From contig CAWHTK010000005.1 in assembly GCA_963832205.1 (NCBI GenBank), positions 44,318 to 108,317 on the forward strand: a DNA stretch of 64,000 bases, given 5' to 3'. The notes beneath the pieces are model-generated. The model did no database searches, was not told the origin of the DNA, and worked only from the letters and a program-made list of their open reading frames with translations. A program made the translations under genes and the position numbers. Positions within the stretch are counted from its first letter, which is position 1. The number at the start of each line of letters is the position of its first letter. Below, in pieces: positions 51,156 to 64,000 of this stretch. The stretch is from Blastocatellia bacterium (GTDB lineage: Bacteria; Acidobacteriota; Blastocatellia; UBA7656).

Positions 51156-54100
51156 CTAGAAGATAAACTTAACCGCAAGCTGAACGTTGCGGCGGTCCTG
51201 TGATCCGTCATTCCTCAGCCCGCGCACCGCGGGGATGAACTCCTGCGCGCTTATGTCGGTCTGGGTGGTGACAACATACAGGTTCGAGTGGTTGAAGATG
51301 TTAAAGAACTCGCCGCGCAGTTGCAGCGACTTGGTCTCGCTGATGCGGAAGTTCTTATAGATGCCCGTATCGAGGTTCCAGAAGCCCGGCCCGCGGAAGG
51401 CGTTGCGCCCCGTCATATTCGACGGGAAGGGGCCGAACTCCGAGTTGCCGGTATTCGGGTTGAGGAAGAACCCCGGAGTCAGCCCGGTGATGGGCAGATA
51501 CTGGAAGAGGTTCGGGGTCGAGGGATCGGCCGCCGGATTGTCCGAGCCTCTCGAAATCTGCTGCCCGGTCAGAGAAGCCCGAGGGCAGACAGCGAATACT
51601 GCGTTCGTGCAGTCGAAGACGGTAAACGGCGTGCCGGTGTGCGCGCTGAATATACCGTTTACGCTCCACCCGCCGAGCACCTTCCCGAGCAGACCTTCCT
51701 GGCTCTTGTAAGCCGGAATCTGCCATACGAAGCTCGATACGAACCGGTGCCTTATGTCGAAGTCGGCGTCGCCGCGATCAAGCTCAGGATTGAACGGATC
51801 GAGCAGGCCGAGGTTGTTGTTGTTCAGTGAATCGCTGAACGTAGAGCTGAGATTGTCAATGGCGTGCGACCAGGTGTATCGCGCCGTCAACTGGAGCCCG
51901 ATGTTTTCGAGCAGCGGGCTCTCGTACCCGAGCGTCAGGCCGTTGTAGTTCGAGAATCCAAGATTCCCGCGCGTGTTGAGGTTCGAGTACTGAGTGTTCA
52001 ATCGCGCCGAGCAGCTCGCGATGTTTGTCGGGTCGCATGGAATGCCGAGGTACACGTTGCCCATGCCGGGACGGTTCGGGTCCGTCAGGTCGTAAAGGTC
52101 GCGACCCGCCGAGCCGGAATACTCTGCCGATACCACTCCGCGAAACATCCTGCGCTCGACCGCCAGGCTCCAGAAGTGGGCGTAGGCGTTGACTATGTCC
52201 GGGTTGACCATGCGGAGGCTCGTGCGCGGGAGCACCTTGCTGCCGGTGCCCGCGAGCGGCCCCGCGTTGCTGCGGGTGATGAACAACTCGTTGACGTCGG
52301 ACCCGGCCGTCAGCGAAACCACCGCGTAGTTGGGCGGGTTCTGTATGACGTTGAAGGTCACGTTTCCGAAGTTGCGCTCGTAGGCCATGCCGTAGCCGCC
52401 GCGGAGGCTGGTGTTGCCGTCGCCGAATATGTCCCAAGCAAAACCGACTCGCGGCGCGAAGTTATTCTTATCCGGTTTCCAGAGCGCGCCGATCGGAGAG
52501 TCAGGGGCCCTGAAGACCTGGCCGTTTGCGATTCGCTCCTGGATCGTAGCGCCGGACCCAAGATAGAAGTTTGCGTCGAGCTCTTCCTTGTTGTTGTGCT
52601 GCACGCCGTAGTACTCGTAGCGCAGCCCAAGGTTTAGCGTGAAGGTCGGGCGCACCTTCCAGGAATCGTTGAAGTAGGCCGCCCACTCGTGGTAGCGGTT
52701 CGAGCGGCTGAAGCTGGGCGGCCCGGCCGGAAGTGTGACTTCCTCGCCGGGGAACTTGCCCTGCGGGTCAATCGCCCCCTGGAAGCTGAGCAGGTTTCCG
52801 GTGATCAGGTTATCGAGCGCGTTGCCAAGATTGCTGCCCAGCGTCTGGACAGAGTTGAGGAACGCGCCGAACGTGCGGTTCGACTGGATATAAACGTACT
52901 GCCCGCCGAATCGAAACGTGTGCGCCCCGCGAGAGTAGTTCAAATCCTCGTTCAACTGTATGAGGTTCTGCGGGCCGCCCGATGGGATCGCGAGTCCGGG
53001 CGAGAACGGCAGGTACCCCGGCAGCGCAATCGGCACGCCGTTCACGCTCGTCGAGGCCGCCCTCAGATAGAGGGTCGGGCCGGGGGCCTGCTCGCCCAGG
53101 GGCGACTGCGAGTTCTGGCGGCTGTAGGCCACCTTCGATTGAGAGACCCATCGCGGGTTGATCGTGTGGGTAACCGACAGGAGTATGTTGTCGTTTCGCG
53201 CCGTGCCGCCGGTGTCGAATCCCGCGTAGGGGCTGAAGCCGACCGTGCCCGCGAAAAAGTCCTGCCCCTGTAGCGCGTACCGGCCATAAAGCTGTGTCTT
53301 GTCGCTTATGTTCCAGTCGCCTCGGCCTAAGAGCAGGTAAGTATTCTGAGGCAGTCCGCCGCCGGCATCTGCCGGGAGCTGGCGGATGACTTCGCCAAAT
53401 ATGGGTAGGCTCGCCGGCAGGTTCGCGAAAGGCCCCGTGGCGTTCGCGCCGGTGATGTCGCTACGACGGAAGGTGCGCCCGTTTATCGGCGTGCCGAGCT
53501 GGTAGGCGCTAAAGAAGTCGCGCGTGGTCGCCGATGTCCGGGCCAGGAATTCCGGCGTGGGGACGAGCGAGCTGAAAGGCGTTGTGCTGCGCACCCGAAT
53601 CCATTCCGTGCTGTTGAAGAAGAAGACCTTGTCCCTTATGACGGGACCGCCTACCGAATAGCCGAACTGATTGCGGGTGAATACGCCCTTCTCGGCCCCG
53701 ATGGCGTTGTCGTTGAACCCGGTGGCCGCAAGCGCCGAGATGCGATTGAACTCGTATATGGTCCCGTGGAAATCGTTCGTACCCGACTTGGTCGCCACGT
53801 TTACCACGCCGCCCGTGGCTCGCCCGAACTCGGCCGAAAAGTTTCCGGTGATGACCTGAAACTCCTGTACGGCGTCGAGCGGGACGCTCTGGCCCACGGT
53901 GGCGGTGAACTGATCGTTATTGTCCGTCCCGTCGAGCAGTATGTTCGTGCTCGCCGAGCGCTGTCCGTTGATGGCAAACCCCGCGCCTCGGCCGGCCGCG
54001 CCGTCCGGGTCGCTCTCGTCGCCGGGCGATACGTTGCCCGCGATCTGGACGAGCGCATACGGGTTGCGGGTGAGCGTCGGCAATTCGACAATCTGACGCT

Positions 54101-54563
54101 CGGAGACTACGCTCGAAAGCATCTGCGTCTCGGTGTTGACCGCGACGCCGCTCTCGCCGGCTATGACGGTGACCTGCTCGGACGCGGCCTGCGCCGAGAG
54201 GTCGAAATCAAGGGCCAGCGGGGTGCCGACCGTAATCTGCGCCCTCTTTGTATTAGCGGAAAAGCCGGAGGCTTCGATCGTCACGTCATAGAGCCCCGGC
54301 TTCATGTTTGAAAGTGTGTAGGTGCCTTCGTCTGTTGTCGTAGTACGTCGCTCAGCGCCGGTGTCAACCGATTTCGCCAGGACTGTTGCGCCGGATACGA
54401 CCGCCCCTTGCGGGTCGGTTACGGTCCCCCGTAATGATCCGGTTTCATTCTGGGCGAAAGCGGCCGTCGCGCCTTGCGACAGCAGAAGAGAGAATACAAG
54501 GACGCTCACCTTTAGCGCGTCCATTACTCTCCTCGCTTTCTTGCTCAATTTGAAAACACTCAT
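51156..54563 (-). CDS. TonB-dependent outer-membrane receptor with N-terminal carboxypeptidase-regulatory-like domain (Acidobacteria-type)
   Basis: Signal peptide, NETGSLRGTVTDPQGAVVSGATVLAKSVDTGAERRTTTTDEGTYTLSNMKPGLYDVTIEASGF, plug and barrel, C-terminal ...LAVKFIF; start ambiguous (54647/54563/54524). Confidence 0.8.
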   Translation of the reverse strand: MSVFKLSKKARRVMDALKVSVLVFSLLLSQGATAAFAQNETGSLRGTVTDPQGAVVSGATVLAKSVDTGAERRTTTTDEGTYTLSNMKPGLYDVTIEASGFSANTKRAQITVGTPLALDFDLSAQAASEQVTVIAGESGVAVNTETQMLSSVVSERQIVELPTLTRNPYALVQIAGNVSPGDESDPDGAAGRGAGFAINGQRSASTNILLDGTDNNDQFTATVGQSVPLDAVQEFQVITGNFSAEFGRATGGVVNVATKSGTNDFHGTIYEFNRISALAATGFNDNAIGAEKGVFTRNQFGYSVGGPVIRDKVFFFNSTEWIRVRSTTPFSSLVPTPEFLARTSATTRDFFSAYQLGTPINGRTFRRSDITGANATGPFANLPASLPIFGEVIRQLPADAGGGLPQNTYLLLGRGDWNISDKTQLYGRYALQGQDFFAGTVGFSPYAGFDTGGTARNDNILLSVTHTINPRWVSQSKVAYSRQNSQSPLGEQAPGPTLYLRAASTSVNGVPIALPGYLPFSPGLAIPSGGPQNLIQLNEDLNYSRGAHTFRFGGQYVYIQSNRTFGAFLNSVQTLGSNLGNALDNLITGNLLSFQGAIDPQGKFPGEEVTLPAGPPSFSRSNRYHEWAAYFNDSWKVRPTFTLNLGLRYEYYGVQHNNKEELDANFYLGSGATIQERIANGQVFRAPDSPIGALWKPDKNNFAPRVGFAWDIFGDGNTSLRGGYGMAYERNFGNVTFNVIQNPPNYAVVSLTAGSDVNELFITRSNAGPLAGTGSKVLPRTSLRMVNPDIVNAYAHFWSLAVERRMFRGVVSAEYSGSAGRDLYDLTDPNRPGMGNVYLGIPCDPTNIASCSARLNTQYSNLNTRGNLGFSNYNGLTLGYESPLLENIGLQLTARYTWSHAIDNLSSTFSDSLNNNNLGLLDPFNPELDRGDADFDIRHRFVSSFVWQIPAYKSQEGLLGKVLGGWSVNGIFSAHTGTPFTVFDCTNAVFAVCPRASLTGQQISRGSDNPAADPSTPNLFQYLPITGLTPGFFLNPNTGNSEFGPFPSNMTGRNAFRGPGFWNLDTGIYKNFRISETKSLQLRGEFFNIFNHSNLYVVTTQTDISAQEFIPAVRGLRNDGSQDRRNVQLAVKFIF

Positions 54564-54801
54564 CTGTGCCTCCTGAAGTGTGCTTGTGCTTTCGGCCGCG
54601 GCCCGGGTCTTGACACTGCAATCCCTTCTGGCCGAGACCAAGAGCAACGGGCTGTTCGCAATACGGAATCGTTGAGCAAGTTTAGGTGTAGCTTCGCCAG
54701 GGCCGTAATAGATTTGGGATGAATCAATCGACGGTTGTGACGAGCGGGCCGAAATTCATGACGGGCCGCTTCAGAGTTTTGCGTCCCGCTCGCCCGAATC
54801 T

Positions 54802-55401
54802 TCATTCAATCCTTTTGGCAATAGCGCCCTCCCACTTCCGAGCGTCAAGCCAATCAACGCCGCCGACGACCATGCTCGTCCTTCTCGTCGAAGGGTCGTA
54901 AACCCACATCCCCCGAGACGTGACGGTGAAGACCGGTATGCCGTACTTTATCGCGACCCTGATGTCATCGGGCTGGGGCCTGGGGTCCGACGTGTTGGGG
55001 TGTGTGTGGACGAGCGCGATTGCGGCCGGGTGCCATTTGAAGGTGAATCTCTTAAACTCGTTGGTCGTCCCCTGAGACCTCGCGGTGTATGTGCCGTCCA
55101 CCATCCTCAGGATCAGGACCACGCCTTCGGTCTGTCCTGCGCCGTTGCCGGATTGCCTCCATATCTTGCCGAACTCTTTTACGACTTCCGGGTTGAACTT
55201 CGAGATCGCATACGCGGCGTTGATGATCGCGGGCGCGGGGGGCGCAAGCAGTCTCGCGCGCTCTGCTTCGGCGGTTAATAAACCTTTCGCGCCGCCTATA
55301 TTCCCGAGCAGCAGAATGAACCCGGCGCTCGATACCTGCCCATTAACCGCGTTGCCGGTCAGCAAAAAAGAGCAGACTACGACCTGAACCAATCGCTTCA
55401 T
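54802..55401 (-). CDS. Secreted hypothetical protein with degenerate RadC/JAB-like HTHPNTSDPRPQPDD motif
   Basis: Signal peptide MKRLVQVVVCSFLLTGNAVNGQ; no confident family match. Confidence 0.35.
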   Translation of the reverse strand: MKRLVQVVVCSFLLTGNAVNGQVSSAGFILLLGNIGGAKGLLTAEAERARLLAPPAPAIINAAYAISKFNPEVVKEFGKIWRQSGNGAGQTEGVVLILRMVDGTYTARSQGTTNEFKRFTFKWHPAAIALVHTHPNTSDPRPQPDDIRVAIKYGIPVFTVTSRGMWVYDPSTRRTSMVVGGVDWLDARKWEGAIAKRIE

Positions 55402-55593: not shown

Positions 55594-56373
55594 TTACAGC
55601 GGCCGTCCCAGTATCTCGTGCAGTTTTTCCTTGTAGCTGCGCGACAGCGTGAGCTGTACGCCTTCGCGCAGTATTATGCGGTATTCGCCGTGGAACCACG
55701 GCTGAAGCTCTTGTATGCGGTCTATGTTGACTATGGCGGAGCGGTGGACGCGGACGAATCGCCGCGGGTCTAGCTGCGATTCCAGAGCGCTGATCGTGTC
55801 GCGTAGCAGGTAGGACTCTTTACCCGTGTGCAGTCGGACATAATTGCCCTCGGCTTCGAGCCAGTCGATCTCTTCGGCCCGGACAAAAAAGATGTGCCCG
55901 TTCATCTTTATGACGAGTCGTTCCAGGTGTGTGGGCTTGCTCTTTATCTGTTCCAGGGCGTCGAGTATTCGGCGGCTTACGTTCTCGCTCTTTTCGGTCA
56001 CGATGTGGGCTTTCGCCCGTTCGAGCGCCTTCTCGAATCGCTCCCTGTCGAATGGTTTTAGCAAATAGTCGAGCGCATAAACATCAAACGCGCGGACCGC
56101 ATACTGGTCGTAAGCGGTGACGAAAACAATGGCGGGCATGCTTTCGGCGTCGAGCTCCTCAATCACCGAGAACCCATCCATGCCCGGCATCTCGACGTCA
56201 AGAAATATCAGGTCCGGCAGATGTTTCTGTATGGCTTCGAGCGCTTCTTCGCCGCTCGCGCATTCTTCGATTATCTGTATCTCCTGATCTTCTGCCAGCA
56301 TGTCGCGGATTCGCTCGCGCGCAAGAGATTCGTCATCAACTATCAGAGTACGAATACACTTTGAGCCTGTCAT
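55594..56373 (-). CDS. LytTR-family two-component response regulator
   Basis: REC domain LIVDDESLARERIRDML...PDLIFLDVEMPGMDGF... plus C-terminal LytTR DNA-binding domain. Confidence 0.9.
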   Translation of the reverse strand: MTGSKCIRTLIVDDESLARERIRDMLAEDQEIQIIEECASGEEALEAIQKHLPDLIFLDVEMPGMDGFSVIEELDAESMPAIVFVTAYDQYAVRAFDVYALDYLLKPFDRERFEKALERAKAHIVTEKSENVSRRILDALEQIKSKPTHLERLVIKMNGHIFFVRAEEIDWLEAEGNYVRLHTGKESYLLRDTISALESQLDPRRFVRVHRSAIVNIDRIQELQPWFHGEYRIILREGVQLTLSRSYKEKLHEILGRPL

Positions 56374-56451
56374 GTGAACGCTCCCCTGGCTCTTTAACGA
56401 AGGAACGTTCGAGGAGGTTCGATTTTGTATGATTTCGTATTTCCGGCGCGC

Positions 56452-57606
56452 TCAATCCTTGTTAAAAGGTATCTCCAGGATTACCGTCAGCCCGCCCCTG
56501 GAGGTATTCATAAGGTCAAGCCGGTGAGAATCCCCGTAGAGCTGTCTGAGCCTTGCTTCAGTGTTCGCGAGCCCTACACCCTGCTTAACTATCCCGCCCG
56601 TGCCGCCGTTCATGGGGATGCCGGGCCCGTTGTCGGTCACCATGATGTGGAGGTATTCGTCGAAGCGTTTCGCCTCGATCTCGATCCGGCCCGCGTCTTT
56701 TCGCGGCGCGATCCCATGTTTTATCGCGTTTTCGACAATCGGTTGCAGAATCAGGTTCGGCAGCCTCGCGCTGAGCGCCTGGGGGTCGATCTTTAAATCG
56801 ACCGTCAGCCGGTCGCGAAAGCGTATGCGCTCGATTTCGAGGTAGCACCTCAAGAACTCGATCTCCTGTTGAAGCGAAACCTCCTGCGTGCCGGCGTTGT
56901 CGAGCGTGAGGCGAAGAAAATCGCCCAGCTTTGCGATCATCTTTTCGGCGGAGTCCGGGTTCTTATGAACGAGCGCCGATATGGAATGGAGCGTATTGAA
57001 GAGGAAATGCGGGTGGAGCTGCATCTTCAGCGCCTGAAGCTGTGCCTGCGCAAGTTGCGCCTCCAGGCGCGAGGCCAGTATCTCGCCTTCGCGCGCGCGC
57101 CGGTAATAATTCATCGCGTAGCTGATCAGTAGTATCAGCCAGTAGATCATCGCGCCGTAGTCGAAAAAGAAATAGACGTTGAGGATCAGCCTCGACAAGG
57201 GTATCCACATGTCCATCTCAAGGACGTAGTATATGAACATAAGGTCGCGAAGCAAGCGCGTGGCGAACCCTATTATCAGAGAGGCGAGCACGTGAATCCC
57301 TACGCCGCGCAGCCAGTTCGTGCGTTCGAGCGGGAATCGATGCGCGAGCCACAGCGTCAGCGGCGTAAGCGCCGCCCATACGTATGCGAACGACATCTCG
57401 GCTATGAGAATCTTGAGCCAGCTTACGGGCTGTTCGCGCCGGCTGTAGGCAAGCGTGGTCTGGCTCCACAAAAATAGCCCGAAGATCGTCCATATCAAAA
57501 TAATCAGCAGGACGCGGACCCAGCGGCGGTCTAAGAGTCTGTTTGATTCCATCTTTATCTCTGCGGGAGAGGCCGTTACACGCACCCCGTATTCACAAAA
57601 TAGCAC
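56452..57606 (-). CDS. LytS/YehU-type sensor histidine kinase
   Basis: Multiple TM helices, His_kinase motif LQAQLHPHFLFNTLHSISALV, HATPase_c (IVENAIKHGI...DNGPGI). Confidence 0.85.
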   Translation of the reverse strand: MLFCEYGVRVTASPAEIKMESNRLLDRRWVRVLLIILIWTIFGLFLWSQTTLAYSRREQPVSWLKILIAEMSFAYVWAALTPLTLWLAHRFPLERTNWLRGVGIHVLASLIIGFATRLLRDLMFIYYVLEMDMWIPLSRLILNVYFFFDYGAMIYWLILLISYAMNYYRRAREGEILASRLEAQLAQAQLQALKMQLHPHFLFNTLHSISALVHKNPDSAEKMIAKLGDFLRLTLDNAGTQEVSLQQEIEFLRCYLEIERIRFRDRLTVDLKIDPQALSARLPNLILQPIVENAIKHGIAPRKDAGRIEIEAKRFDEYLHIMVTDNGPGIPMNGGTGGIVKQGVGLANTEARLRQLYGDSHRLDLMNTSRGGLTVILEIPFNKD

Positions 57607-58056
57607 AAAGACGCGCGTTCTAGCCGCTTAAAAACGAGTGATCTGAATGGCCTAGACTATCGGCGGGCGCGCGCGGGACAAAAGGCTCGAAAGCCCATTG
57701 CCGCCGCCGGCCCGTTCTGGCAGGCGGTCTGGCGTTGCCTCGCCGCCTCACACAAGACAACACGCTGAAACTACAGCCTGTCATTCTTATGTAAGAAAGA
57801 TTCTTTACAAACATAACTGTGACGAAGCGGCCTGATAAAATGACGAAACGGCCTGATCTCATTTAGGAAGGCCGGCGTGCCGCCGAAATTGGCGCAGGAG
57901 CGCGATCTTTTTACATGCCGCCCCTGTGCGGATTGGCATTAGATTCAACCCGTTTCTATAAACATCGCACCGCTTGCTTACCTTTCCGCCGCCCCGCGCT
58001 GTAGAATAGATGCGGGGACGGCATTGAATTGAATTTGGGAGGCAGAGCGCCAGAGC

Positions 58057-58911
58057 TTGCAACGACAAATAGCGCAGATAGGCAAGGAAGCCGGTGCCGA
58101 AGCAGTAGCGGCCGCCTTCTACGATTACGAGACCGAAACATCCTGGAGTTATCACGGCGACCGCTGGTTTCATGCCGCAAGTACCATAAAGGTCGCAGTG
58201 CTGGCCTCGGTATTCCGCGCCGTCAACGACGGAGTTTTTCAATTAAGCTCGCGCGTGCATGTCCGCAATCGCTTTTTGAGCGTGGTCAACGGCGAGCCCT
58301 ATCGCATCCCGACGACGCGCGACGCCAACTCAAAAGTCCACGCTTCGCTCGGCCGCACGATGAACGTGCAGGAGCTCGCCTTTCATATGATCGTCACCAG
58401 CAGCAACCTAGCGACGAACCTGCTGCTCGATTTAGTGGGCGTCGAGCGGGCCGGGCGTCTCGCCCAGGAGATAAAGCCGGACGGCATAAAGCTCAAGCGC
58501 GGCGTCGAAGACGACAAGGCTTTTGAAGCGGGCATAAACAACACCGTCACCGCCAACGGCCTCCTCAGCCTCTTCCGCGCGATACAGGATGAGCGGGGCT
58601 TTACGCACGATTCCTCGCAAAAGATGCTGAGCATACTCAACCAGCAGGAGTTCAACGGCGGCATCCCGGCCGGGCTCCCCGCGCGCGTGCGCGACGTGGC
58701 CCGCATCGCGCACAAGACGGGGGAGATTTCGACCGTCGCGCACGACGCAGGTGTCGTCTTGATACCTAAACGAAAGCCCTACGTCGTCGCCATCCTCACC
58801 GAATGGGGCGAGGAGACCAGTTCGGGGAGGCAGGAGACTCTGGCCGGAATATCGAAGGCCATATACACGGAACTGATCGAACAGGAACACGCGGGGGCTC
58901 GCAATGAGTAG
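58057..58911 (+). CDS. Class A beta-lactamase-like serine hydrolase
   Basis: SxxK (STIKV), SDN-like (SSNLATN), KTG (AHKTGEIS); 8-nt overlap with the next gene. Confidence 0.7.
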   Translation: MQRQIAQIGKEAGAEAVAAAFYDYETETSWSYHGDRWFHAASTIKVAVLASVFRAVNDGVFQLSSRVHVRNRFLSVVNGEPYRIPTTRDANSKVHASLGRTMNVQELAFHMIVTSSNLATNLLLDLVGVERAGRLAQEIKPDGIKLKRGVEDDKAFEAGINNTVTANGLLSLFRAIQDERGFTHDSSQKMLSILNQQEFNGGIPAGLPARVRDVARIAHKTGEISTVAHDAGVVLIPKRKPYVVAILTEWGEETSSGRQETLAGISKAIYTELIEQEHAGARNE

Positions 58912-59506
58912 CGACCGCGCGCTCCCGTTGAGGATCGTCGATGGACTGACCCTGGACGAAAAGTACCGCGCCGTGTTGCGCCCCGGCGAGATACTGGAGG
59001 ACCGGCAGGGCCGCGCGCGAAGGCTCCCGCGATTCTTCTACGAGGTGGATTCGAGGCAGACGGCGCAGGAGACCGAGCTTGCGCCGCACTTCGCGCTCTG
59101 GGAGTTCATCGACACGGATGTGCGCGAGGCCGAGGTGCTCCGGAGGTTTCCCCGCTACATACCCTGCGCGGTGACGCTTCTGGCGCTCCACCTTGAGCTG
59201 TTCCGGCAAGAGGTGAATACGATCGTGCGCATCGCCGCAAACGGGGGATACCGCTCGCCCGGCCACGCAATTTCAAGGTATGCCTCCCCCCATAACTGGG
59301 GCACGGCGGCGAACATTTATCAGATAGGCGACGAGTACCTGGACGAGCAGGAGAAGATCGAGCGGTTCAATTCAATCGCGGCAAGGGCGCTGCCCGGCGT
59401 ATGGACGCGGCCCTATGGGCACAACGTCGGCTATGCGGACGACCACATCCATCTGGATATTGGCTATGTCACGGTGGTCCCGCGCGACGCGCCGGGCGAG
59501 GAGTAG
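58904..59506 (+). CDS. Peptidase M15-like (VanY/DUF882-type Zn D,D- or L,D-peptidase fold)
   Basis: GYRSPGHAISRYASPHNWGTAANI ... DDHIHLD resembles the SxHxxGxAxD / DxxH zinc site of M15 peptidases (Asp replaced by Asn). Confidence 0.5.
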   Translation: MSSDRALPLRIVDGLTLDEKYRAVLRPGEILEDRQGRARRLPRFFYEVDSRQTAQETELAPHFALWEFIDTDVREAEVLRRFPRYIPCAVTLLALHLELFRQEVNTIVRIAANGGYRSPGHAISRYASPHNWGTAANIYQIGDEYLDEQEKIERFNSIAARALPGVWTRPYGHNVGYADDHIHLDIGYVTVVPRDAPGEE

Positions 59507-59525
59507 CGACCGCGGGCGTTTGTGA

Positions 59526-60812
59526 GTGCGAGCACAGGGAAGTGGGTTGGCAGTGATCGACAAAGTAAAACAGTCGCCTCTTGGCGATAAATCATCACCC
59601 GCGGTCGAGCGCGCGGCTCTGTTGGAGCTTGCCGCGATCGGGATGGAGTCGGAGTTTTCGCTCGTCATAAACGGCGAGCCGGTGACGCCGGAAGAGGCAT
59701 TCGGCGACCCGCGTGCTTTTATGAGCAGACCCTTGATGCACAGGCAGGGGACTTCTTATCACCTCCCGACGGGCGGCGCGGTCTATTTTGATACCGGGGT
59801 CATAGAGGTGGCGACCCCGGTCATCGAGATTGAGCGCGGGTGCGCGGCGCGCGCCGGGAGGTCGCTTTGGGAGGCGATTCTCTTCGTCCGGGCCGAGCTG
59901 GACGAATGGGAGCGCCGCACCGGAAACGACGCCCGGCTCGTAGGGTTCAGCGCCCATTACAATATCTCATTCGAGATACCGGCGGCCCGGCAGGGCGCGA
60001 ACCGGACGATTGAAAAGCTCGCGCTGTTGCTCTCCTACATACTGCCTATCCCTGTGATGCTGCTTGCGACCAACCGCCGCTCGACCGGCGTGGGCGTGCG
60101 CCCGCGCGGCGACCGCGTGGAGATAACCGTGGACTTCACGCCAAGCTCGTCGCTTATGATAGCGACCGCCACGCTCATCACCGGCATCGTGCGCGACGTG
60201 ATGAGATGGCCCTCGTTCGAGTTAGCCGCGCTCAAAGAGAAGGGCGTGCCGGTCATTCGCGGCTACCGCCCCATGCCTCATACGACGCGGAAGGGATGGC
60301 TCGGCCGCTTTGACTGCTACCCGGCCAACCCCTTTTCCTCGTGCGTTGACGATTCGCGCTGGGAGCTTGACGGCGGCTGCGATAATGAGCGAGCGAGCGA
60401 GCACTCGGTCGCGAGCCTCCGCGAGATAGCGGAGAGTATATTCAAAAGGTTCTGGCGGCCCATCGCCCGGATGTCAGACCCGTTCACCTTCAAGCTGATA
60501 GAATCGGTCATCAGCGGCCGCGCGCCTTCGCTGCTCGATCTGGACGACCGCCCGCCTGAATACGAGGACGTCGGCAGGCTCTGCGCGTGGGACAACCTCT
60601 TCCCCGAAAGCGTGCTGGCGCGCTCTCGCTACGAGCGGGTGCTCATGCGCGCAATATCGGGCCGCAAGCTCATACTCGGCGGCGCGCGTTACAGGCCGGT
60701 GGGGATGCGCGGGTGGTCCGAAGTCGTATTCCGGCGCGACGAAGACGGAACACGCCACGTCTTTTCGATTGACGTTCTCGTTAAGTACCTGGATAAATGG
60801 GAACGTTGCTGA
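59526..60812 (+). CDS. Hypothetical protein, possibly GCS2/YbdK-like carboxylate-amine ligase (amidoligase)
   Basis: N-terminal AIGMESEFSLVINGEPVT resembles the G-[IV]-E-x-E-[FM] start of GCS2 ligases; weak, unconfirmed. Confidence 0.3.
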   Translation: MRAQGSGLAVIDKVKQSPLGDKSSPAVERAALLELAAIGMESEFSLVINGEPVTPEEAFGDPRAFMSRPLMHRQGTSYHLPTGGAVYFDTGVIEVATPVIEIERGCAARAGRSLWEAILFVRAELDEWERRTGNDARLVGFSAHYNISFEIPAARQGANRTIEKLALLLSYILPIPVMLLATNRRSTGVGVRPRGDRVEITVDFTPSSSLMIATATLITGIVRDVMRWPSFELAALKEKGVPVIRGYRPMPHTTRKGWLGRFDCYPANPFSSCVDDSRWELDGGCDNERASEHSVASLREIAESIFKRFWRPIARMSDPFTFKLIESVISGRAPSLLDLDDRPPEYEDVGRLCAWDNLFPESVLARSRYERVLMRAISGRKLILGGARYRPVGMRGWSEVVFRRDEDGTRHVFSIDVLVKYLDKWERC

Positions 60813-60819
60813 TGCGGCG

Positions 60820-61254
60820 ATGATACTGAATAACCAAAAAAGGCGGCCGACAGACGTCGCGCTGCCCGACCATGCCATAGAGATGCTCGGCTCGTATTTT
60901 CCGGGGCTCGATTTGAAGAGGGTCTGCATCCGCGAGGGCGTCCCGTGGTATGTGCCTCTGAGCGCATCGGCATATACGGACAGGGCAGTGATCTACTTCA
61001 AGCCCGGCACGTATGACCCCAATTCGGCGGCCGGGCTGGCACACATAGCGCACGAGCTTGCGCACACGGCGCAGTACACCGAGCACGGCAAATGGCGCTT
61101 CAGGGCGCTTTATATCGGCTCCTGGCTCCGCAACCTTTTCAGGCACCGCTCGTTCGTGCCCGCCTATCGGGAGAATAGATTCGAGGAAGAGGCGCGCCGC
61201 CTGGCGGAGGTCGTCTTTAATGACCTGTGTAAAAAGTTCGGGGGCCAGTATTAA
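60820..61254 (+). CDS. DUF4157-family putative Zn-metallopeptidase (HExxH)
   Basis: LPDHAIEMLGSYFPGLDLKRVCIREG...YTDRAVIYFKPGTYDPNSAAGLAHIAHELAHTAQY matches the DUF4157 pattern ending in lAHELtHvvQ; start MILNNQKRRP just after upstream stop. Confidence 0.7.
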   Translation: MILNNQKRRPTDVALPDHAIEMLGSYFPGLDLKRVCIREGVPWYVPLSASAYTDRAVIYFKPGTYDPNSAAGLAHIAHELAHTAQYTEHGKWRFRALYIGSWLRNLFRHRSFVPAYRENRFEEEARRLAEVVFNDLCKKFGGQY

Positions 61255-61274
61255 CTTTATGGAGGATTCGATCA

Positions 61275-61769
61275 ATGACGCGACGAAAGTTTATAAAGGG
61301 GACGGGCGCGACCGCCGTCGGCGCGGCAGTTGTCACGAAACCGGCCCTGGGAGCCGCTTCCAGGGCAAGCAGCTCGCAGTCTAAGGGAAAGGCGTCGAAA
61401 AAAATCATCTCGACCGACCGCGCTCCCAAACCCATCGGCCCTTACTCGCAAGCCGTGGTAGCGGGCAATACGGTCTATGTCGCGGGGCAGGGGCCTTTCG
61501 ACCCCGTCACGCGCAAGCTCATAGAAGGGGGTTTCGAACAACACGCCGTGCAGACTTTTGAAAACGTGAAGGCGATACTCGAAGGGGCCGGGGCGACGCT
61601 CGGCGACGTGGTCAAGGTAAACGTATACCTGGCGGACCTTACGAACTTCGCGAAGATGAACGAAATCTACACGCGTTACTTCAAGTCCGACTTTCCGGTT
61701 CGCACGACCGTCGGCACCGCGCTTCTCGGCGGGATGTTAATCGAAGTCGACTGCATCGCGGCGATTTAA
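61275..61769 (+). CDS. RidA/YjgF/L-PSP family enamine/imine deaminase with twin-arginine (Tat) signal peptide
   Basis: MTRRKFIKGTGATAVGAAVVTKPALGAAS; RidA core APKPIGPYSQAVVAGNTVYVAGQ... Confidence 0.8.
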   Translation: MTRRKFIKGTGATAVGAAVVTKPALGAASRASSSQSKGKASKKIISTDRAPKPIGPYSQAVVAGNTVYVAGQGPFDPVTRKLIEGGFEQHAVQTFENVKAILEGAGATLGDVVKVNVYLADLTNFAKMNEIYTRYFKSDFPVRTTVGTALLGGMLIEVDCIAAI

Positions 61770-62284
61770 TGTGGATTATTCGGTGGGCGAAGTCGCTAAG
61801 CAAATCAAACGAATTTGAGATACCCATACGAAACTTCGGTAAGGTCGATGGCTGGCTCTACCGCGGGGCGCTTCCGGACCGGCGAGGTTATGAATCGCTC
61901 CGCGACAAGCTCGGCATCCAGAGGGTTGTCAGCCTGATAGAGCACCAGACGGAGCTTGATCGCGACCTCGCGCTCGGCTCGGGCGTAAAGGAGTGGGTGC
62001 ATATACCATTCTCCGACCGCCACGCGCCCGACCCTTTGAAGGTGAAAGAGTGGCTCCAGGTCATCGCGACCGCAAAGACCGGAGGATTGATCTACACGCA
62101 CTGCCGCGGAGGGCGTCACCGGACAGGTTTTCTGGTCGCGGTCTATCGCGTGCTGGAGTACGGGTGGAGCAAGCAGCAGGCGTATGAAGAGATGAAAAGA
62201 TACGGCTGGTATGGGGCGCTGGGGCACCGGCCTATCCTCGAATGGTTCTTGAATGATTTTGACCCGGAGAGTTTTCGCCGTTAG
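61769..62284 (+). CDS. Dual-specificity / tyrosine protein phosphatase (CX5R)
   Basis: HCRGGRHRTGFLVAVY P-loop; 1-nt overlap (TAATG) with the RidA gene. Confidence 0.75.
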   Translation: MWIIRWAKSLSKSNEFEIPIRNFGKVDGWLYRGALPDRRGYESLRDKLGIQRVVSLIEHQTELDRDLALGSGVKEWVHIPFSDRHAPDPLKVKEWLQVIATAKTGGLIYTHCRGGRHRTGFLVAVYRVLEYGWSKQQAYEEMKRYGWYGALGHRPILEWFLNDFDPESFRR

Positions 62285-62336
62285 AAGTCCGGGGCGAAGT
62301 TGTAGCAATAGGCCACTCGCGATAGTAGAATGATGG

Positions 62337-62600
62337 GTGAGTATGATCAGGACCGTGCGCGTAGGCGACATAGTAGGCTTCAGGACATTTTCGGGCGCGA
62401 TACGATACGGCGAAGTCGTGGAGTTGCTGATGCGCGGCAGCGACGGGCGCGCGACGCGCAAGGATGAAGTCAGCGTGCGGCTCAAACCCGACGGGCATGT
62501 TGTAATGGTCCAGCGGTGGCGGCTGGCCGAGCGGTATGACGGCAAAAAGATTGCGCGGGCGGCGCAACCGGCTGAGCCGCTCGAACGTAAGGGCAAGTGA
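62337..62600 (+). CDS. Small hypothetical protein (87 aa)
   Basis: ORF only; MSMIRTVRVGDIVGFRTFSGAIRYGEVVELL... Confidence 0.3.
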   Translation: MSMIRTVRVGDIVGFRTFSGAIRYGEVVELLMRGSDGRATRKDEVSVRLKPDGHVVMVQRWRLAERYDGKKIARAAQPAEPLERKGK

Positions 62601-62616
62601 GGAGAGGTAAAAGATA

Positions 62617-63369
62617 TTGATCGGCAGGCGACTTACACTGCTTATAATTCTGACGCTCGGGCTTACCTGCGCAAACATTCATGCGCAGAAGAAGAAGCCT
62701 CCGCGCGAATCTCTTGCCACGCTTGAAAAGCGCGAATCCGAAGCGCGGGGCGAGCTGATCAAGGCCGCCGAGGAGTATAAGAAATCGCTTGAGCGACTGC
62801 TCGTGCTTCAAGAGCGCGATGTCAAGGAGGCTCAGGAATTATTCGAGCGGCGCAAGGCGCTTTTCGAGCAGAAGATCATATCGAAGCGCGACCTTGACGC
62901 GGGCGAGCAAATACTCGCGACGGCCCGCACAAAAGCTGAAGTGACGCGCAAGGAGATGAAAGGGACCGACACGCTCGTGGCCGAGGTCAAGGCCGAGGAG
63001 CAGCTTGCCAGAATGCCGAAGCCGCGAGTAAACGCGTACCAGGCGACGGCCGCGCTCATCCGTTACAGCGGCGCGGGCCGGTGGTCGATTAGCGACGCCT
63101 CAAAAGTACAATCTTTCTTCGCCTCTCGCTTCGGCCGCTCGCTGCCGGTGAGCGCATACGGCCAGACATCGGTTCATGACCGGCTGGGTTTTGATCATCG
63201 CAACTCGGTCGACGTGGCGGTTCATCCCGACAGCGCCGAAGGGCAGGCGCTAATCGCTTATCTTCGCAGCATGGGAATACCGTTTCTGGCGTTCCGTCAC
63301 GCCATACCGGGCTCGGCCACCGGGGCTCACATACACATCGGCCGTCCGTCCCACAGGATCGCCCGATAA
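62617..63369 (+). CDS. Secreted coiled-coil protein with C-terminal domain weakly resembling M15/VanY peptidase Zn site
   Basis: Signal peptide MIGRRLTLLIILTLGLTCANIHAQ; charged helical region; C-terminal SVHDRLGFDHRNSVDVAV ... GAHIHIG. Confidence 0.4.
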   Translation: MIGRRLTLLIILTLGLTCANIHAQKKKPPRESLATLEKRESEARGELIKAAEEYKKSLERLLVLQERDVKEAQELFERRKALFEQKIISKRDLDAGEQILATARTKAEVTRKEMKGTDTLVAEVKAEEQLARMPKPRVNAYQATAALIRYSGAGRWSISDASKVQSFFASRFGRSLPVSAYGQTSVHDRLGFDHRNSVDVAVHPDSAEGQALIAYLRSMGIPFLAFRHAIPGSATGAHIHIGRPSHRIAR

Positions 63370-63479
63370 AGCGGAGCGCCCGAGAGATAAAGATGCGCCG
63401 CGCGCTTGCGCCCGCTCGCCCCTCGACTGTAACCTGTCACCTACTCACGCTGCGTCATGCATAGAAAGTGTGAGTCGTC

Positions 63480-63917
63480 GTGTCGCCGACTTTCAATGAG
63501 GACACTGCCAGAATGAACGTAGGAAGCGAGTGGATAGTTGATGCCGAAGGCTGTTCAGCCGATCTTCTTGCGCAGACCGAAGCGGTCGACCGAGTCTGCG
63601 CGGAGATTATTAAAGACCTTGAGCTTCAGGTGATCGGCAGTCCGGCCTGGCACAAGTTTCCGGGGCCGGGCGGTGTAACCGGTCTGTTTTTGCTTACCGA
63701 ATCTCACCTGGCATGCCACACCTACCCTGAGACAGGAATCGCCACGTTTAACCTTTACTGCTGCCGCGCGCGCCCCGAGTGGCCATGGCAGGAGCGGCTC
63801 GCGCGCTCGCTCGGCGCGACGCGCGTGAGCGTGCGACAGGTGACGCGCGGGCAGGCCGATAAATCGCCTCAGACGATGAACCATTTTCTCGTGGCAACTG
63901 AGCCGGAGGTCAGATAG
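63480..63917 (+). CDS. S-adenosylmethionine decarboxylase proenzyme-like (pyruvoyl-dependent, SpeH/SpeD small class)
   Basis: LFLLTESHLACHTYPETGIATFNLYCC matches the E-S-H / S-x-H-T-[WY]-P-E self-cleavage motif; start may be the internal MNVGSEW (63513). Confidence 0.55.
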   Translation: MSPTFNEDTARMNVGSEWIVDAEGCSADLLAQTEAVDRVCAEIIKDLELQVIGSPAWHKFPGPGGVTGLFLLTESHLACHTYPETGIATFNLYCCRARPEWPWQERLARSLGATRVSVRQVTRGQADKSPQTMNHFLVATEPEVR

Positions 63918-64000
63918 CGTTGAGCCCCGTAGAGATTTCCTGCCCCGCCTGCGGCGCGCCTATAACTTTTAAGATAGGCTCGTCCATCGTAACGATATGC

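What the first reader, a model, noticed from the sequence alone, without database searches (positions are those of the whole stretch)
58057..61254. Tightly coupled four-gene operon: beta-lactamase-like serine hydrolase, M15-like Zn peptidase, GCS2-like amidoligase candidate, and DUF4157 HExxH metallopeptidase
The genes overlap or abut (58911/58904; 59506>59526; 60812>60820). They combine two peptide-bond hydrolase families, a possible carboxylate-amine ligase and a stand-alone DUF4157 domain (HELAHTAQY). DUF4157 is usually an N-terminal module of polymorphic-toxin or eCIS-associated proteins. Ligase-plus-peptidase operons have been proposed to make or remodel peptide metabolites and cell-wall-like linkages. 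This exact combination is not a described system that I recognise. A Tat-secreted RidA, a DSP phosphatase and a secreted M15-like protein follow downstream.
Basis: partly seen in the sequence, partly recalled or inferred. Interest (0 to 1): 0.65.

Follow-up and report, generated by a model that had tools for sequence, protein, structure and literature searches.

The report
Three-enzyme cassette, probably cell-wall peptide processing

Summary
The four ORFs are real and abut as described. g1 is class-A beta-lactamase/PBP-A-like. g2 has an M15A/LAS peptidase fold. g3 (428 aa, no Pfam, NCBIfam or PDB sequence hit) folds as a glutamine-synthetase-type carboxylate-amine ligase. Its nearest solved structures are PafA and Dop, and all Mg/ATP/catalytic positions are invariant.

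The conserved unit is three genes, not four. g1-g2-g3 occur in this order in 77 of 81 related loci (Gemmatimonadota, Acidobacteriota, a few Bacteroidota), out of at least 568 loci that encode a g3 relative. The DUF4157 gene follows the trio only in the closest relative. Elsewhere it heads its own block (DUF4157-RidA-x-250aa-SAM decarboxylase) with no g3 upstream.

All three proteins lack signal peptides. In Gemmatimonadota the trio lies next to mpl (murein peptide ligase) in 33 of 56 informative loci. In 33 loci it directly follows a peptide ABC-importer binding protein and permease. Distant g3 homologs pair with a different LAS peptidase (M74).

Best reading, about 0.37: a cytoplasmic module that trims or remodels peptidoglycan stem peptides, or other D-amino-acid peptides. 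g3 would perform an ATP-dependent step on a glutamyl-type carboxyl or amide. No paper I could find describes it. The function is inferred, not shown.

The parts
58057..58911 (+). g1: cytoplasmic class-A beta-lactamase / PBP-A-like serine acyl-hydrolase (284 aa), first gene of the conserved trio
   Evidence: PF13354 Beta-lactamase2, E 2.9e-43. The NCBIfam class A beta-lactamase model scores 101 bits against a cutoff of 200, so it is not a bona fide beta-lactamase. The best solved homolog is Tll2115 (PBP-A) of Thermosynechococcus elongatus, E 4e-18; PBP-A is a DD-carboxy/endopeptidase (PMC11189452). Family-invariant motifs among 58 orthologs: AAS42TIK45, TS115S116N117, R148GVE151D152, K220TG. 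The protein starts where the mature domain of the secreted enzymes starts, so it has no signal peptide.
58904..59506 (+). g2: LAS / M15A-fold metallopeptidase-like protein (200 aa) with the Zn-ligand Asp mostly replaced by Asn
   Evidence: The window protein has no Pfam or NCBIfam hit. 11 of 33 family members weakly hit PF08291 Peptidase_M15_3, best E 0.0017. The AF2 model has pLDDT 85.8. Foldseek against BFVD gives phage 'Peptidase M15A C-terminal' proteins at E 3.7e-5 to 1e-3, prob 1.0, TMq 0.42-0.47. Against PDB only LdcB 4ox3 appears, at E 0.95. Invariant residues: NGGYRSPxH121, H130, D180, H181, H183, D185. Position 137 is N in 64, D in 2 and H in 1 of 67 orthologs, and D in the divergent trio of L090.
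59526..60812 (+). g3: unannotated GS-fold carboxylate-amine ligase superfamily enzyme, nearest PafA/Dop (428 aa; the public call is 419 aa, implying a start at 59553)
   Evidence: No Pfam, NCBIfam or PDB sequence hit, even for 36 members or as a profile. The AF2 model has pLDDT 83.4 and pTM 0.83. Foldseek against PDB: PafA 4bjr E 1.7e-8, Dop 7oyh/5lrt TMq 0.50-0.53, then YbdK 1tt4/1r8g, GS and plant GCL. The GhExE motif is G39-M-E41-S-E43. Y87-F-D89-TGVI-E94-VA-T97-P98 has the same spacing as Dop Y92-x-D94-x4-E99. H144, R192, R194, R197 and E199 are all invariant (residue roles from PMC8599861 and PMC7947786).
60820..61254 (+). g4: stand-alone DUF4157/eCIS_core HExxH protein. It is NOT part of the conserved trio; it is the first gene of a separate block (DUF4157-RidA-...-250aa-SAM decarboxylase) that abuts the trio here
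   Evidence: PF13699, E 2.9e-11. Only 9 homologs were found. It lies next to the trio only in L005. In L091, L093 and L094 it is followed by RidA, and in L091 and L093 also by the g7-like gene and SAMdc; none has a g3 relative in the 350-1200 nt of upstream sequence held.

Best explanation
g1-g2-g3 is a self-contained, translationally coupled, cytoplasmic three-enzyme cassette that acts on short peptides containing D-amino acids and a gamma-glutamyl linkage. The most likely substrates are peptidoglycan stem peptides (L-Ala-gamma-D-Glu-mDAP-D-Ala-D-Ala and its trimmed or amidated forms), either imported or released during cell-wall turnover.

Proposed division of labour (inferred):
- g1, a PBP-A-like serine DD-peptidase, removes or exchanges the terminal D-Ala.
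- g2, an LAS/M15A-fold enzyme of the family that contains the LD-carboxypeptidase LdcB, VanX/VanY and L-Ala-D-Glu endolysins, cuts a second D-centred bond. An example is mDAP-D-Ala, which would supply the LdcA-type trimming that any Mpl-using cell needs.
- g3 binds ATP/Mg and activates a glutamyl-type carboxylate or carboxamide as an acyl-phosphate, as GS, GCL, PafA and Dop do. It then either hydrolyses it (Dop-like: deamidation of D-iGln, or cleavage of the gamma-D-Glu-mDAP amide) or ligates an amine to it. The direction cannot be decided from sequence.

The products would feed Mpl-dependent re-use or amino-acid catabolism.

Shown: the folds, the invariant catalytic residues, the absence of signal peptides, the conservation of the trio, and the genomic links to mpl, to a peptide importer and to LAS peptidases. 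Inferred: the substrate and every reaction.
For: (1) The trio occurs in the same order in 77 of 81 non-redundant related loci, with overlapping or nearly abutting ORFs. It persists in a relative whose g3 is only 46% identical (L090).
(2) Both hydrolase partners belong to families whose characterised members act on D-Ala/D-Glu bonds of peptidoglycan. The nearest solved relative of g1 is PBP-A, a DD-carboxy/endopeptidase specific for D-iGln-amidated muropeptides (PMC11189452). g2 has the M15A/LAS fold.
(3) g3 has the GS-type beta-sheet cradle fold, nearest PafA/Dop. It keeps GhExE and every Mg-ligand or catalytic equivalent of Dop (E8, E10, Y92, D94, E99, H155, H241->E199, R227), all invariant (PMC8599861, PMC7947786). 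From my own knowledge, the characterised members of this superfamily I am aware of activate a glutamate gamma-carboxyl or carboxamide.
(4) mpl (TIGR01081, 433 bits against a cutoff of 388.7) lies convergently within 6 kb downstream in 33 of 56 informative loci. The breakdown is Gemmatimonadaceae 19/19, other Gemmatimonadales 6/8, Longimicrobiaceae 2/5 and Longimicrobium 2/8. Spacings vary from 70 nt to 4.9 kb and the intervening genes differ.
(5) In 33 loci a family-5 peptide-binding protein and a DppB/GsiC-like permease sit directly upstream on the same strand, with a gap of 51-133 nt to g1.
(6) Distant g3 homologs (34-41% identity) pair convergently with a different LAS enzyme (Peptidase_M74/MepA-like, 29.6 bits against a cutoff of 25). 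One of them also has a CHAP-like protein nearby. The g3-LAS partnership therefore recurs in a second architecture.
(7) Mpl-using cells need cytoplasmic trimming of tetrapeptides, and unrelated peptidases replace LdcA in some lineages (PMC13046382).
Against: - No biochemical or genetic datum exists for any of the three families.
- The mpl and importer links are confined to Gemmatimonadota and may be partly inherited synteny. mpl is on the opposite strand. In the window itself and in other Blastocatellia (0/4) and Bacteroidota (0/2) there is no mpl within reach.
- g1 is only about 25% identical to PBP-A, and PBP-A is periplasmic.
- The canonical Zn-binding Asp of g2 is Asn in about 95% of orthologs, so g2 may bind metal differently or not be a peptidase.
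- The TM-score of g3 to PafA/Dop is only about 0.5. hhalign gives E 0.0024 and 12% probability, over the N-terminal motifs only.
- No known PG-recycling pathway uses a GS-fold enzyme.
- Some g3 homologs stand alone (L014; L089).
- Sequence conservation across phyla is unusually high (63-74% for g3). This would also fit recent horizontal spread of a module with some other role.
Confidence: 0.37

Rival explanations
1. Precursor or peptide remodelling in the manner of vancomycin-resistance operons, or synthesis of a small D-amino-acid-containing peptide. Two hydrolases remove a normal terminus (as VanX and VanY do) and the ATP-dependent ligase g3 installs an alternative amine or amino acid on a peptide carboxylate. 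The result would be a modified cell-wall precursor or a small peptide metabolite.
For: The enzyme logic is the same as VanA+VanX+VanY: ligase, M15 dipeptidase and DD-carboxypeptidase, all cytoplasm-facing (established knowledge). g3 keeps all ligase-type catalytic residues. From my own knowledge, most members of the superfamily are ligases and Dop is the only hydrolase. The genes are tightly translationally coupled.
Against: No conserved regulator, exporter, racemase or dehydrogenase accompanies the trio. The ligase fold is GS-type, not the ATP-grasp Ddl type. There is no adjacent precursor peptide. The link to mpl and a peptide importer fits salvage better than de novo remodelling.
Confidence: 0.2
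2. A pupylation-like conjugation system. g3 ligates the C-terminal glutamate of a protein or peptide tag to target amines (PafA-like) or removes it (Dop-like). g1 and g2 act as processing or deconjugating hydrolases.
For: PafA and Dop are the top structural matches for g3. The Y-x-D-x4-E spacing is identical to Dop. The very strong sequence constraint (more than 120 invariant positions) would fit a macromolecular substrate.
Against: No conserved small ORF lies next to the trio in any lineage. No proteasome, Mpa/ARC ATPase or Pup-like gene was seen in the neighbourhoods examined. No Pup_ligase Pfam hit appears for any of 36 members. Beta-lactamase-fold and LAS enzymes are not known deconjugases.
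Confidence: 0.08
3. A detoxification or resistance module against a beta-lactam-type or peptide antimetabolite, for example tabtoxinine-beta-lactam-like glutamine-synthetase inhibitors delivered as dipeptides. A peptidase, a beta-lactam-ring hydrolase and a GS-fold protein would bind, phosphorylate or sequester the toxin.
For: The combination of a beta-lactamase-fold enzyme, a dipeptidase-like enzyme and a GS-fold enzyme in the cytoplasm matches the chemistry of GS-targeting beta-lactam pro-toxins (own knowledge; no tool result bears on it). The trio is distributed in soil phyla. Distant g3 homologs sit in islands that carry Dnd/Dpd and MqsA-like genes.
Against: There is no hit in PADLOC and none on plasmids. 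g1 is far below the beta-lactamase equivalog thresholds. g3 is closer to PafA/Dop than to GS. The trio is chromosomal and vertically stable in Gemmatimonadaceae.
Confidence: 0.05
4. One reading: a four-gene system in which the DUF4157 HExxH protein works together with the two hydrolases and the ligase.
For: In the window g4 starts 8 nt after g3, with no terminator between them. The same arrangement occurs in L005.
Against: g4 is absent from 80 of 81 related trio loci. Its orthologs in L091, L093 and L094 sit in front of RidA (L091 and L093 also carry the g7-like gene and SAMdc) with no g3 in the upstream sequence held.
Confidence: 0.03

Closest known systems
PafA (Pup ligase) and Dop (depupylase/deamidase) of the actinobacterial Pup-proteasome system
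   Same: They are the best structural matches to g3 (Foldseek E 1.7e-8 to 1e-6, TMq 0.48-0.53). g3 shares the GhExE motif, the Y-x-D...E-x2-T-P strand, H-x-N and the Arg cluster, all invariant. The Y-x-D-x4-E spacing is identical to Dop. ATP/Mg-dependent acyl-phosphate chemistry on a glutamyl carboxyl or carboxamide is therefore expected.
   Different: Sequence similarity is detectable only by weak profile-profile alignment (E 0.0024). There is no PF03136 hit. g3 is about 420 aa against 450-500 aa. No Pup, proteasome or Mpa genes lie nearby and there is no Dop-loop. The partners are a PBP-like hydrolase and an LAS-fold protein. The phyla differ (Gemmatimonadota, Acidobacteriota, Bacteroidota), and a published BLAST survey did not list these among PafA/Dop-bearing phyla (PMC7947786).
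YbdK / GCS2 carboxylate-amine ligases, glutamine synthetase and glutamate-cysteine ligase
   Same: They have the same superfamily fold (1tt4/1r8g at E 1e-5 to 1e-4; GS and plant GCL at E 1e-4 to 1e-2) and the same metal- and ATP-binding motifs.
   Different: They are weaker structural matches than PafA/Dop. There are no Pfam GCS2, Gln-synt or GshA hits. These enzymes act on free glutamate and are not paired with peptidases.
PBP-A (Tll2115) of Thermosynechococcus elongatus, a class-A-beta-lactamase-like DD-peptidase
   Same: It is the best solved homolog of g1 (E 4e-18). The SxxK, SxN and KTG motifs are shared. By HMMER alignment g1, like PBP-A, has no Glu in the exact Glu166 register of true class A beta-lactamases. 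PBP-A is a DD-carboxy/endopeptidase with a preference for D-iGln-amidated stems (PMC11189452).
   Different: g1 lacks a signal peptide and is predicted to be cytoplasmic, whereas PBP-A works in the periplasm. Identity is low. g1 has its own invariant RGVED motif in the omega-loop region.
LAS / M15 metallopeptidases (M15A phage endolysins, LdcB LD-carboxypeptidase, VanX/VanY, MepK; also M74 MepA)
   Same: g2 has this fold. It has the GYRSP...SxHxxGxAx[D/N] and DxxHxD motifs, with His130, Asp180 and His183 invariant. LdcB appears as a weak PDB match. An M74 LAS protein partners the distant g3 homologs.
   Different: g2 is below all Pfam thresholds. The Zn-ligand Asp is Asn in about 95% of orthologs. 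g2 has an extra N-terminal module of about 60 residues. It has no signal peptide or cell-wall-binding domain.
E. coli cytoplasmic murein-peptide recycling (AmpD, LdcA, Mpl, MpaA, Opp/MppA)
   Same: Genomic linkage of the trio to mpl and to a peptide ABC importer in Gemmatimonadota. There is a logical need for cytoplasmic D-Ala trimming before Mpl acts (PMC13046382). The predicted location is cytoplasmic.
   Different: None of the trio is homologous to LdcA (S66) or MpaA (M14). No GS-fold enzyme is known in that pathway. The linkage is absent in the Acidobacteriota, including this window.

Membership tests
Class A beta-lactamase (functional beta-lactamase) | Score above the curated equivalog threshold | tested here: not met
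   NF033103 bla_class_A scores 101.5 bits against a cutoff of 200. All named families are far below their cutoffs.
Class A beta-lactamase / PBP-A-like serine acyl-hydrolase fold (PF13354) | Pfam domain plus the SxxK, S-x-N and K-T-G active-site motifs | tested here: met
   PF13354, E 2.9e-43, 148 bits against a cutoff of 22. S42-T-I-K45, S115/S116-N117 and K220-T-G are conserved in at least 95% of 58 orthologs.
Class A beta-lactamase (functional beta-lactamase) | Omega-loop Glu166 general base in register (R164-x-E166-x-x-x-N170) | tested here: inconclusive
   g1 has an invariant R148-G-V-E151-D152 ... N162. The Glu is one position out of register. The HMMER alignment to PBP-A places a Phe opposite the Leu158/Glu166 position. 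This cannot be resolved without a g1 structure model.
Class A beta-lactamase / periplasmic PBP | Secretion signal (the enzyme acts outside the cytoplasm) | tested here: not met
   g1 begins at the start of the mature domain. Orthologs of 273-309 aa have no hydrophobic N-terminus. This was judged by inspection; no signal-peptide predictor was run.
Peptidase M15 / LAS metallopeptidases | LAS (Hedgehog / DD-peptidase) fold | tested here: met
   Foldseek against BFVD: phage Peptidase M15A proteins at E 3.7e-5 to 1e-3, prob 1.0, TMq 0.42-0.47 and TMt up to 0.64.
Peptidase M15 / LAS metallopeptidases | Pfam gathering threshold for an M15 model | tested here: not met
   The window protein has no hit. 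11 of 33 relatives hit PF08291 with best E 0.0017, and 2 hit PF13539. The L090 ortholog scores 17.3 bits against a cutoff of 23.2.
Peptidase M15 / LAS metallopeptidases | Zn ligands H-x6-D plus a distal H, with an acidic residue three positions before the distal H | tested here: inconclusive
   H130, D180 and H183 are invariant. The Asp ligand position (137) is N in 64, D in 2 and H in 1 of 67 orthologs, and D in L090. Metal binding cannot be tested here.
Carboxylate-amine ligase superfamily (GS / GCL / GCS2 / PafA-Dop) | Curved antiparallel beta-sheet cradle fold | tested here: met
   The AF2 model (pLDDT 83) matches PafA, Dop, YbdK, GS and GCL with probability 0.98-1.00. 13 PDB chains score at E <= 1e-3 and all are from this superfamily.
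Carboxylate-amine ligase superfamily (GS / GCL / GCS2 / PafA-Dop) | GhExE ATP/Mg motif and the further Mg-ligand and catalytic residues | tested here: met
   G39-M-E41-S-E43 is invariant and aligns by hhalign to PafA GIETE, as do Y87, D89 and E94 to the PafA/Dop Y-x-D...E strand. H144, R192, R194, R197 and E199 are invariant but were assigned by motif inspection only. Residue roles come from PMC8599861 and PMC7947786.
Pup ligase / depupylase family (PafA, Dop; PF03136) | Sequence-level family membership | tested here: not met
   No Pfam hit for any of 36 members at E <= 10. No PDB sequence hit with a single sequence or a profile. hhalign gives 12% probability.
Pup ligase / depupylase family (PafA, Dop; PF03136) | Genomic association with pup, proteasome or Mpa genes, or any small tag gene | tested here: not met
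   None was seen in the annotated neighbourhoods or among recurrent neighbour clusters. No small ORF is conserved across lineages.
Pup ligase / depupylase family (PafA, Dop; PF03136) | [quoted passage not shown] | not testable with these tools
   Model coordinates and residue-level structural alignments were not available. The g3 C-terminus (residues 368-428) is predicted to be a small beta-rich domain.
DUF4157 / eCIS_core (g4) | Pfam domain with HExxH | tested here: met
   PF13699, 43.8 bits against a cutoff of 22. HELAH is present.
   g4 lies next to the trio in 1 of 81 related loci. g4 orthologs occur in a different conserved block with no g3 in the upstream sequence held.
Mpl-linked murein peptide recycling pathway | Genomic linkage to a bona fide mpl | tested here: inconclusive
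   mpl (TIGR01081, above cutoff) lies within 6 kb in 33 of 56 informative loci, all of them Gemmatimonadota. The count is 0 of 7 for Acidobacteriota and Bacteroidota loci, and there is none in the 64-kb window. The orientation is convergent, so it is not the same operon.

The most novel reading that the evidence does not exclude
g3 founds a previously unrecognised branch of the PafA/Dop-GS superfamily that uses ATP/phosphate-driven acyl-phosphate chemistry on peptidoglycan stem peptides. One possibility is Dop-like cleavage or deamidation of the protease-resistant gamma-D-glutamyl linkage or of D-iso-glutamine. It would work in a fixed three-enzyme complex with a cytoplasmic PBP-like DD-peptidase and an Asn-variant LAS peptidase. 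This would be a new route for cell-wall peptide salvage, or for scavenging of necromass peptides, in Gemmatimonadota and Acidobacteriota, and it would be the first non-pupylation function for a PafA/Dop-like enzyme.
Probability: 0.22. Interest if true: 0.78.

Novelty: new variant of a known kind. Interest (0 to 1): 0.55.

Why it matters
- PafA and Dop are the only studied enzymes of their branch and are thought of as specific to pupylation. A structurally nearest relative with intact catalytic residues is found here in at least 568 loci of poorly studied soil phyla. It is locked to two peptidoglycan-peptidase-like partners. That points to an unexplored use of acyl-phosphate chemistry on small peptides.
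- If the cell-wall-peptide reading is right, it would identify the missing peptide-trimming step upstream of Mpl in Gemmatimonadota. It would also show how abundant soil oligotrophs handle D-amino-acid peptides.
- None of g2 and g3 has a family annotation. Defining them would annotate thousands of "hypothetical proteins".
- If the reading is wrong, the trio is still a clean, testable, strongly constrained three-enzyme module of unknown function.

Tried and rejected
- Sequence searches of g2 and g3 against PDB chains, single sequence and profile: only chance-level hits.
- Pfam and NCBIfam on the window proteins g2 and g3: nothing. Pfam on all 36 g3 relatives: nothing relevant.
- PADLOC defence models: no hit for any of the four proteins.
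- Rosetta-stone fusions: the apparent g2+g3 and g1+g2+g3 fusion proteins (P0254, P0343) contain garbled stretches and look like frameshifted gene calls. They were rejected as evidence.
- Adjacent precursor or Pup-like small ORF: clustering of 406 small ORFs flanking the trio found only lineage-restricted out-of-frame artefacts.
- LytS/LytTR two-component genes upstream of g1: present only in the two closest relatives, so this is local synteny rather than a conserved regulator.
- Rfam on 57000-64000: no RNA element.
- Promoter and terminator scan: no excess over shuffles.
- Plasmid search with g3: no match.
- Literature: five full-text searches found nothing on this trio. The Iyer et al. 2009 amidoligase survey could not be retrieved, so I cannot exclude that it mentions this family.
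- The look-up of encoding contigs for the window's own g3 (P0001) returned nothing.

Full report
OBSERVATION. The four + strand ORFs exist as stated.
- g1 is 58057-58911 (284 aa).
- g2 is 58904-59506 (200 aa) and overlaps g1 by 8 nt.
- g3 is 59526-60812 (428 aa). The public gene call is 419 aa (P0001), which implies a start at GTG 59553.
- g4 is 60769-61254. Its real start is almost certainly ATG 60820, 8 nt after the g3 stop. That start gives the 144-aa protein that matches database entry P0391 at 100%.
No convincing terminator-like site lies on the + strand between g1 and the phosphatase gene. Downstream are a RidA with a Tat-type N-terminus, a DSP-type phosphatase, a 250-aa protein and SAM decarboxylase. 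Upstream and divergent is a LytS-like kinase with a LytTR regulator. The closest relative found is a Blastocatellia MAG with 86% identity for g3 (L005), so the window is from an acidobacterium of that class.

WHAT THE PROTEINS ARE.

g1 is a Beta-lactamase2 domain protein (PF13354, E 3e-43).
- It scores half the threshold of the curated class A beta-lactamase model.
- It has no signal peptide. It begins where the mature domain of the secreted enzymes begins.
- Its best solved relative is Tll2115 (PBP-A) of Thermosynechococcus elongatus (E 4e-18). PBP-A is a DD-carboxypeptidase/endopeptidase with a strong preference for muropeptides amidated on D-iso-glutamate (PMC11189452).
- Among 58 orthologs the motifs SxxK (S42, K45), S-S-N (115-117) and KTG (220-222) are conserved in at least 95%, as is a family-specific RGVED (148-152).

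g2 has no Pfam, NCBIfam or PDB sequence match of its own.
- 11 of 33 close relatives give weak hits to Peptidase_M15_3.
- Its AlphaFold model (pLDDT 85.8) matches predicted structures of phage "Peptidase M15A C-terminal domain" proteins (E 3.7e-5 to 1e-3, probability 1.0).
- The alignment shows the M15A signature GYRSP..H...SxH130xxGxAx[N137] and D180-H-x-H183-x-D185.
- The residue that is the Zn-binding Asp in canonical LAS enzymes is Asn in 64, Asp in 2 and His in 1 of 67 orthologs. It is Asp in a divergent trio (L090).

g3 has no hit in Pfam, NCBIfam or PDB sequences. This holds when all 36 aligned relatives are scanned and when a profile is used.
- Its model (pLDDT 83.4, pTM 0.83) matches the Pup ligase PafA (4bjr, E 1.7e-8) and the depupylase Dop (7oyh, 5lrt; TMq 0.50-0.53). 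YbdK/GCS2, glutamine synthetases and plant glutamate-cysteine ligase follow. All 13 matches at E <= 1e-3 belong to this one superfamily.
- A weak profile-profile alignment (E 0.0024) puts g3 G39-M-E41-S-E43 on the PafA GIETE motif. This is the GhExE ATP motif of the superfamily (PMC7947786). The same alignment puts Y87-F-D89-TGVI-E94 on the PafA/Dop Y-x-D...E strand.
- In Dop the Mg ligands are E8, E10, Y92, E99, H155 and H241. D94 activates water and R227 holds phosphate (PMC8599861).
- The g3 counterparts are E41, E43, Y87, E94, H144 and E199 (Glu in place of H241), with D89 and the cluster R192/R194/R197. All are invariant in the family.
- The Y-x-D-x4-E spacing equals that of Dop (one search gives the Dop numbering).
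- g3 is thus predicted to be a catalytically competent, ATP/Mg-dependent enzyme that forms an acyl-phosphate.

g4 is a stand-alone DUF4157/eCIS_core HExxH protein.

WHAT IS CONSERVED.
- Among 81 non-redundant fetched loci, g1, g2 and g3 are present in this order in 77. One locus lacks g1 only because the contig ends. One is uninformative. Two Acidobacteriota loci have g3 alone (L008, and L014 examined).
- ORFs overlap by 1-8 nt in other lineages too.
- The trio persists at 46% g3 identity (L090).
- The carriers are Gemmatimonadota (Gemmatimonadaceae, Longimicrobiaceae), Acidobacteriota (Blastocatellia and others) and a few Bacteroidota MAGs.
- Conservation is unusually high: g3 is 63-74% identical between phyla, with more than 120 invariant positions.
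- The family is compact. Only 396 of 1.84 billion 50%-identity representatives match at E <= 1e-3, and most of those are fragments.
- There is no plasmid copy.

By contrast, g4, RidA, the 250-aa protein and SAM decarboxylase accompany the trio only in L005.
- g4 has only nine detectable homologs.
- In L091, L093 and L094 its orthologs are followed by RidA, and in L091 and L093 also by the 250-aa protein and SAM decarboxylase, exactly as in the window.
- None of the three has a g3 relative in the upstream sequence held, which is only about 350-1200 nt. L094 has a pseudopilin gene there.
- The window therefore shows two independent modules that happen to abut.

CONTEXT THAT BEARS ON FUNCTION.
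- Clustering of the neighbouring ORFs and NCBIfam identified a bona fide mpl (TIGR01081, 433 bits against a cutoff of 388.7). Its product is the ligase that re-attaches recycled L-Ala-gamma-D-Glu-mDAP to UDP-MurNAc.
- mpl lies convergently downstream of g3 in 33 of 56 loci with enough flank. The breakdown is Gemmatimonadaceae 19/19, other Gemmatimonadales 6/8, Longimicrobiaceae 2/5 and Longimicrobium 2/8. Distances range from 70 nt to 4.9 kb and the intervening genes differ.
- In 33 loci a family-5 peptide-binding protein and a DppB/GsiC-type permease sit directly upstream on the same strand, 51-133 nt from g1.
- Neither link exists in the Acidobacteriota loci or in this window.
- Two distant g3 homologs (34% and 41% identity) lack g1 and g2. 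Each is paired convergently with another LAS enzyme, a Peptidase_M74 (MepA-like) protein (29.6 bits against a cutoff of 25). One also has a CHAP-like protein nearby. These sit in islands that carry MqsA/ParA-like or Dnd/Dpd genes.
- The partnership between g3 and an LAS peptidase is therefore seen in two architectures.
- No small ORF is conserved next to the trio. There is no RNA family and no defence-system model.

MECHANISM. What is shown:
- three cytoplasmic enzymes with intact, or for g2 nearly intact, catalytic signatures;
- obligate co-occurrence and translational coupling;
- two partners from families whose characterised members cut D-Ala or D-Glu bonds of peptidoglycan;
- a third partner from a superfamily whose characterised members, to my knowledge, all activate a glutamyl gamma-carboxyl or carboxamide as an acyl-phosphate;
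- linkage in one phylum to mpl and to a peptide importer.

What I infer, at about 0.37: the cassette processes peptidoglycan stem peptides, or similar D-amino-acid and gamma-glutamyl peptides, in the cytoplasm.
- g1 acts as a DD-peptidase.
- g2 acts as a second D-specific peptidase. It may supply the LD-carboxypeptidase trimming that Mpl-using cells need to avoid toxic UDP-MurNAc-tetrapeptide. That function is known to be taken over by unrelated peptidases in some bacteria (PMC13046382).
- g3 does an ATP-dependent step on the D-Glu/D-iGln (or mDAP) carboxyl. This could be Dop-like hydrolysis or deamidation, or PafA-like ligation. The direction cannot be read from sequence.

Rivals, in order of weight:
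- a Van-like remodelling or ligase module (0.20);
- a pupylation-like tagging system (0.08; no tag gene, no proteasome genes);
- an antimetabolite-resistance module (0.05);
- the four-gene reading (0.03).
The remaining probability is "something else".

COMPARISON AND NOVELTY.
- g3 works like a member of the GS/GCL/PafA-Dop superfamily and passes the fold and active-site tests. It fails sequence-level membership of the Pup-ligase family and lacks that family's genomic hallmarks. It is best called a new family in that superfamily.
- g1 is a PBP-A-like hydrolase and not a beta-lactamase.
- g2 is an LAS-fold variant.
- Five full-text searches found no description of the trio. A BLAST-based survey of PafA/Dop homologs does not list these phyla (PMC7947786). 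I could not retrieve the 2009 amidoligase survey by Iyer et al..
- I rate it a new variant of a known kind: known folds in an undescribed, very widespread and strongly constrained combination.
- Interest is 0.55. The finding is real and offers a testable biochemical question. The function is inferred from context that is absent in the window's own lineage.

Noticed in passing
window 60820-63917 (also L005, L091, L093, L094): A separate conserved block begins at the DUF4157 gene. It runs DUF4157 (HExxH), RidA with a Tat-type N-terminus, then a small or variable gene (a DSP phosphatase in the window, a 72-74-aa ORF elsewhere), a 250-aa protein, SAM decarboxylase and, in L091, a DUF4178 protein. 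Its function is unknown. A Tat-exported RidA is unusual.
   Followed up: partly
L085 6001-9410; L086; L087 6001-7577: Distant g3 homologs (34-41% identity) are paired convergently with a Peptidase_M74 (MepA-like) LAS protein that has no obvious signal peptide. In L085 there is also a CHAP-like protein. They sit in islands that carry MqsA-like, ParA/CbiA-like and NRPS genes (L085) or DndB/QueC/QueD (Dpd-like) genes (L087). This may be a conflict-system version of the g3-LAS pair. The M74 gene in L087 is truncated to 87 aa.
   Followed up: partly
proteins P0243, P0244, P0249, P0252 (loci L088, L089): A g3 subclade (46-53% identity) carries an Arg-rich, low-complexity insertion of about 100-150 residues before the C-terminal beta domain. 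On the short contigs available it appears without g1 and g2.
   Followed up: partly
window 62617-63369 (+): This 250-aa protein has a hydrophobic N-terminus, a coiled-coil-like middle and a C-terminal H-x5-D ... H-I-H-I-G pattern. It has no Pfam or NCBIfam family hit, only weak coiled-coil and efflux-adaptor noise. It is conserved with the DUF4157 block.
   Followed up: no
window 55594-57606 (-): A LytS-like histidine kinase and a LytTR response regulator lie divergently upstream of g1. The arrangement is kept only in the two closest relatives (L005, L006), so it is probably not a dedicated regulator of the trio.
   Followed up: yes
L080 and L083 (both from MAG DATFHK01, SMAG_U8687): Two separate copies of the whole trio, each with the upstream permease and downstream mpl context, occur on two contigs of one MAG. 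This is either a duplication or strain heterogeneity in the bin.
   Followed up: no
proteins P0254, P0343: Database 'fusion' proteins that span g2+g3 or g1+g2+g3 contain long garbled stretches and look like frameshifted gene calls. They should not be used as Rosetta-stone evidence.
   Followed up: yes
Gemmatimonadaceae loci, e.g. L048 7411-7932: A DUF1697 protein (PF08002, E 1e-26) sits between g3 and mpl on the trio strand in about 22 loci. Its function is unknown and it may be a fourth operon member in that family.
   Followed up: partly
window 51156-54647 (-) and 54802-55401 (-): A 1163-aa ORF lies upstream; by eye it looks like an acidobacterial TonB-dependent receptor with a carboxypeptidase-regulatory-like N-terminal domain, but it was not searched against any family library. 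Next to it is a 199-aa secreted protein with a weak DUF4329 match. Neither is related to the finding.
   Followed up: no
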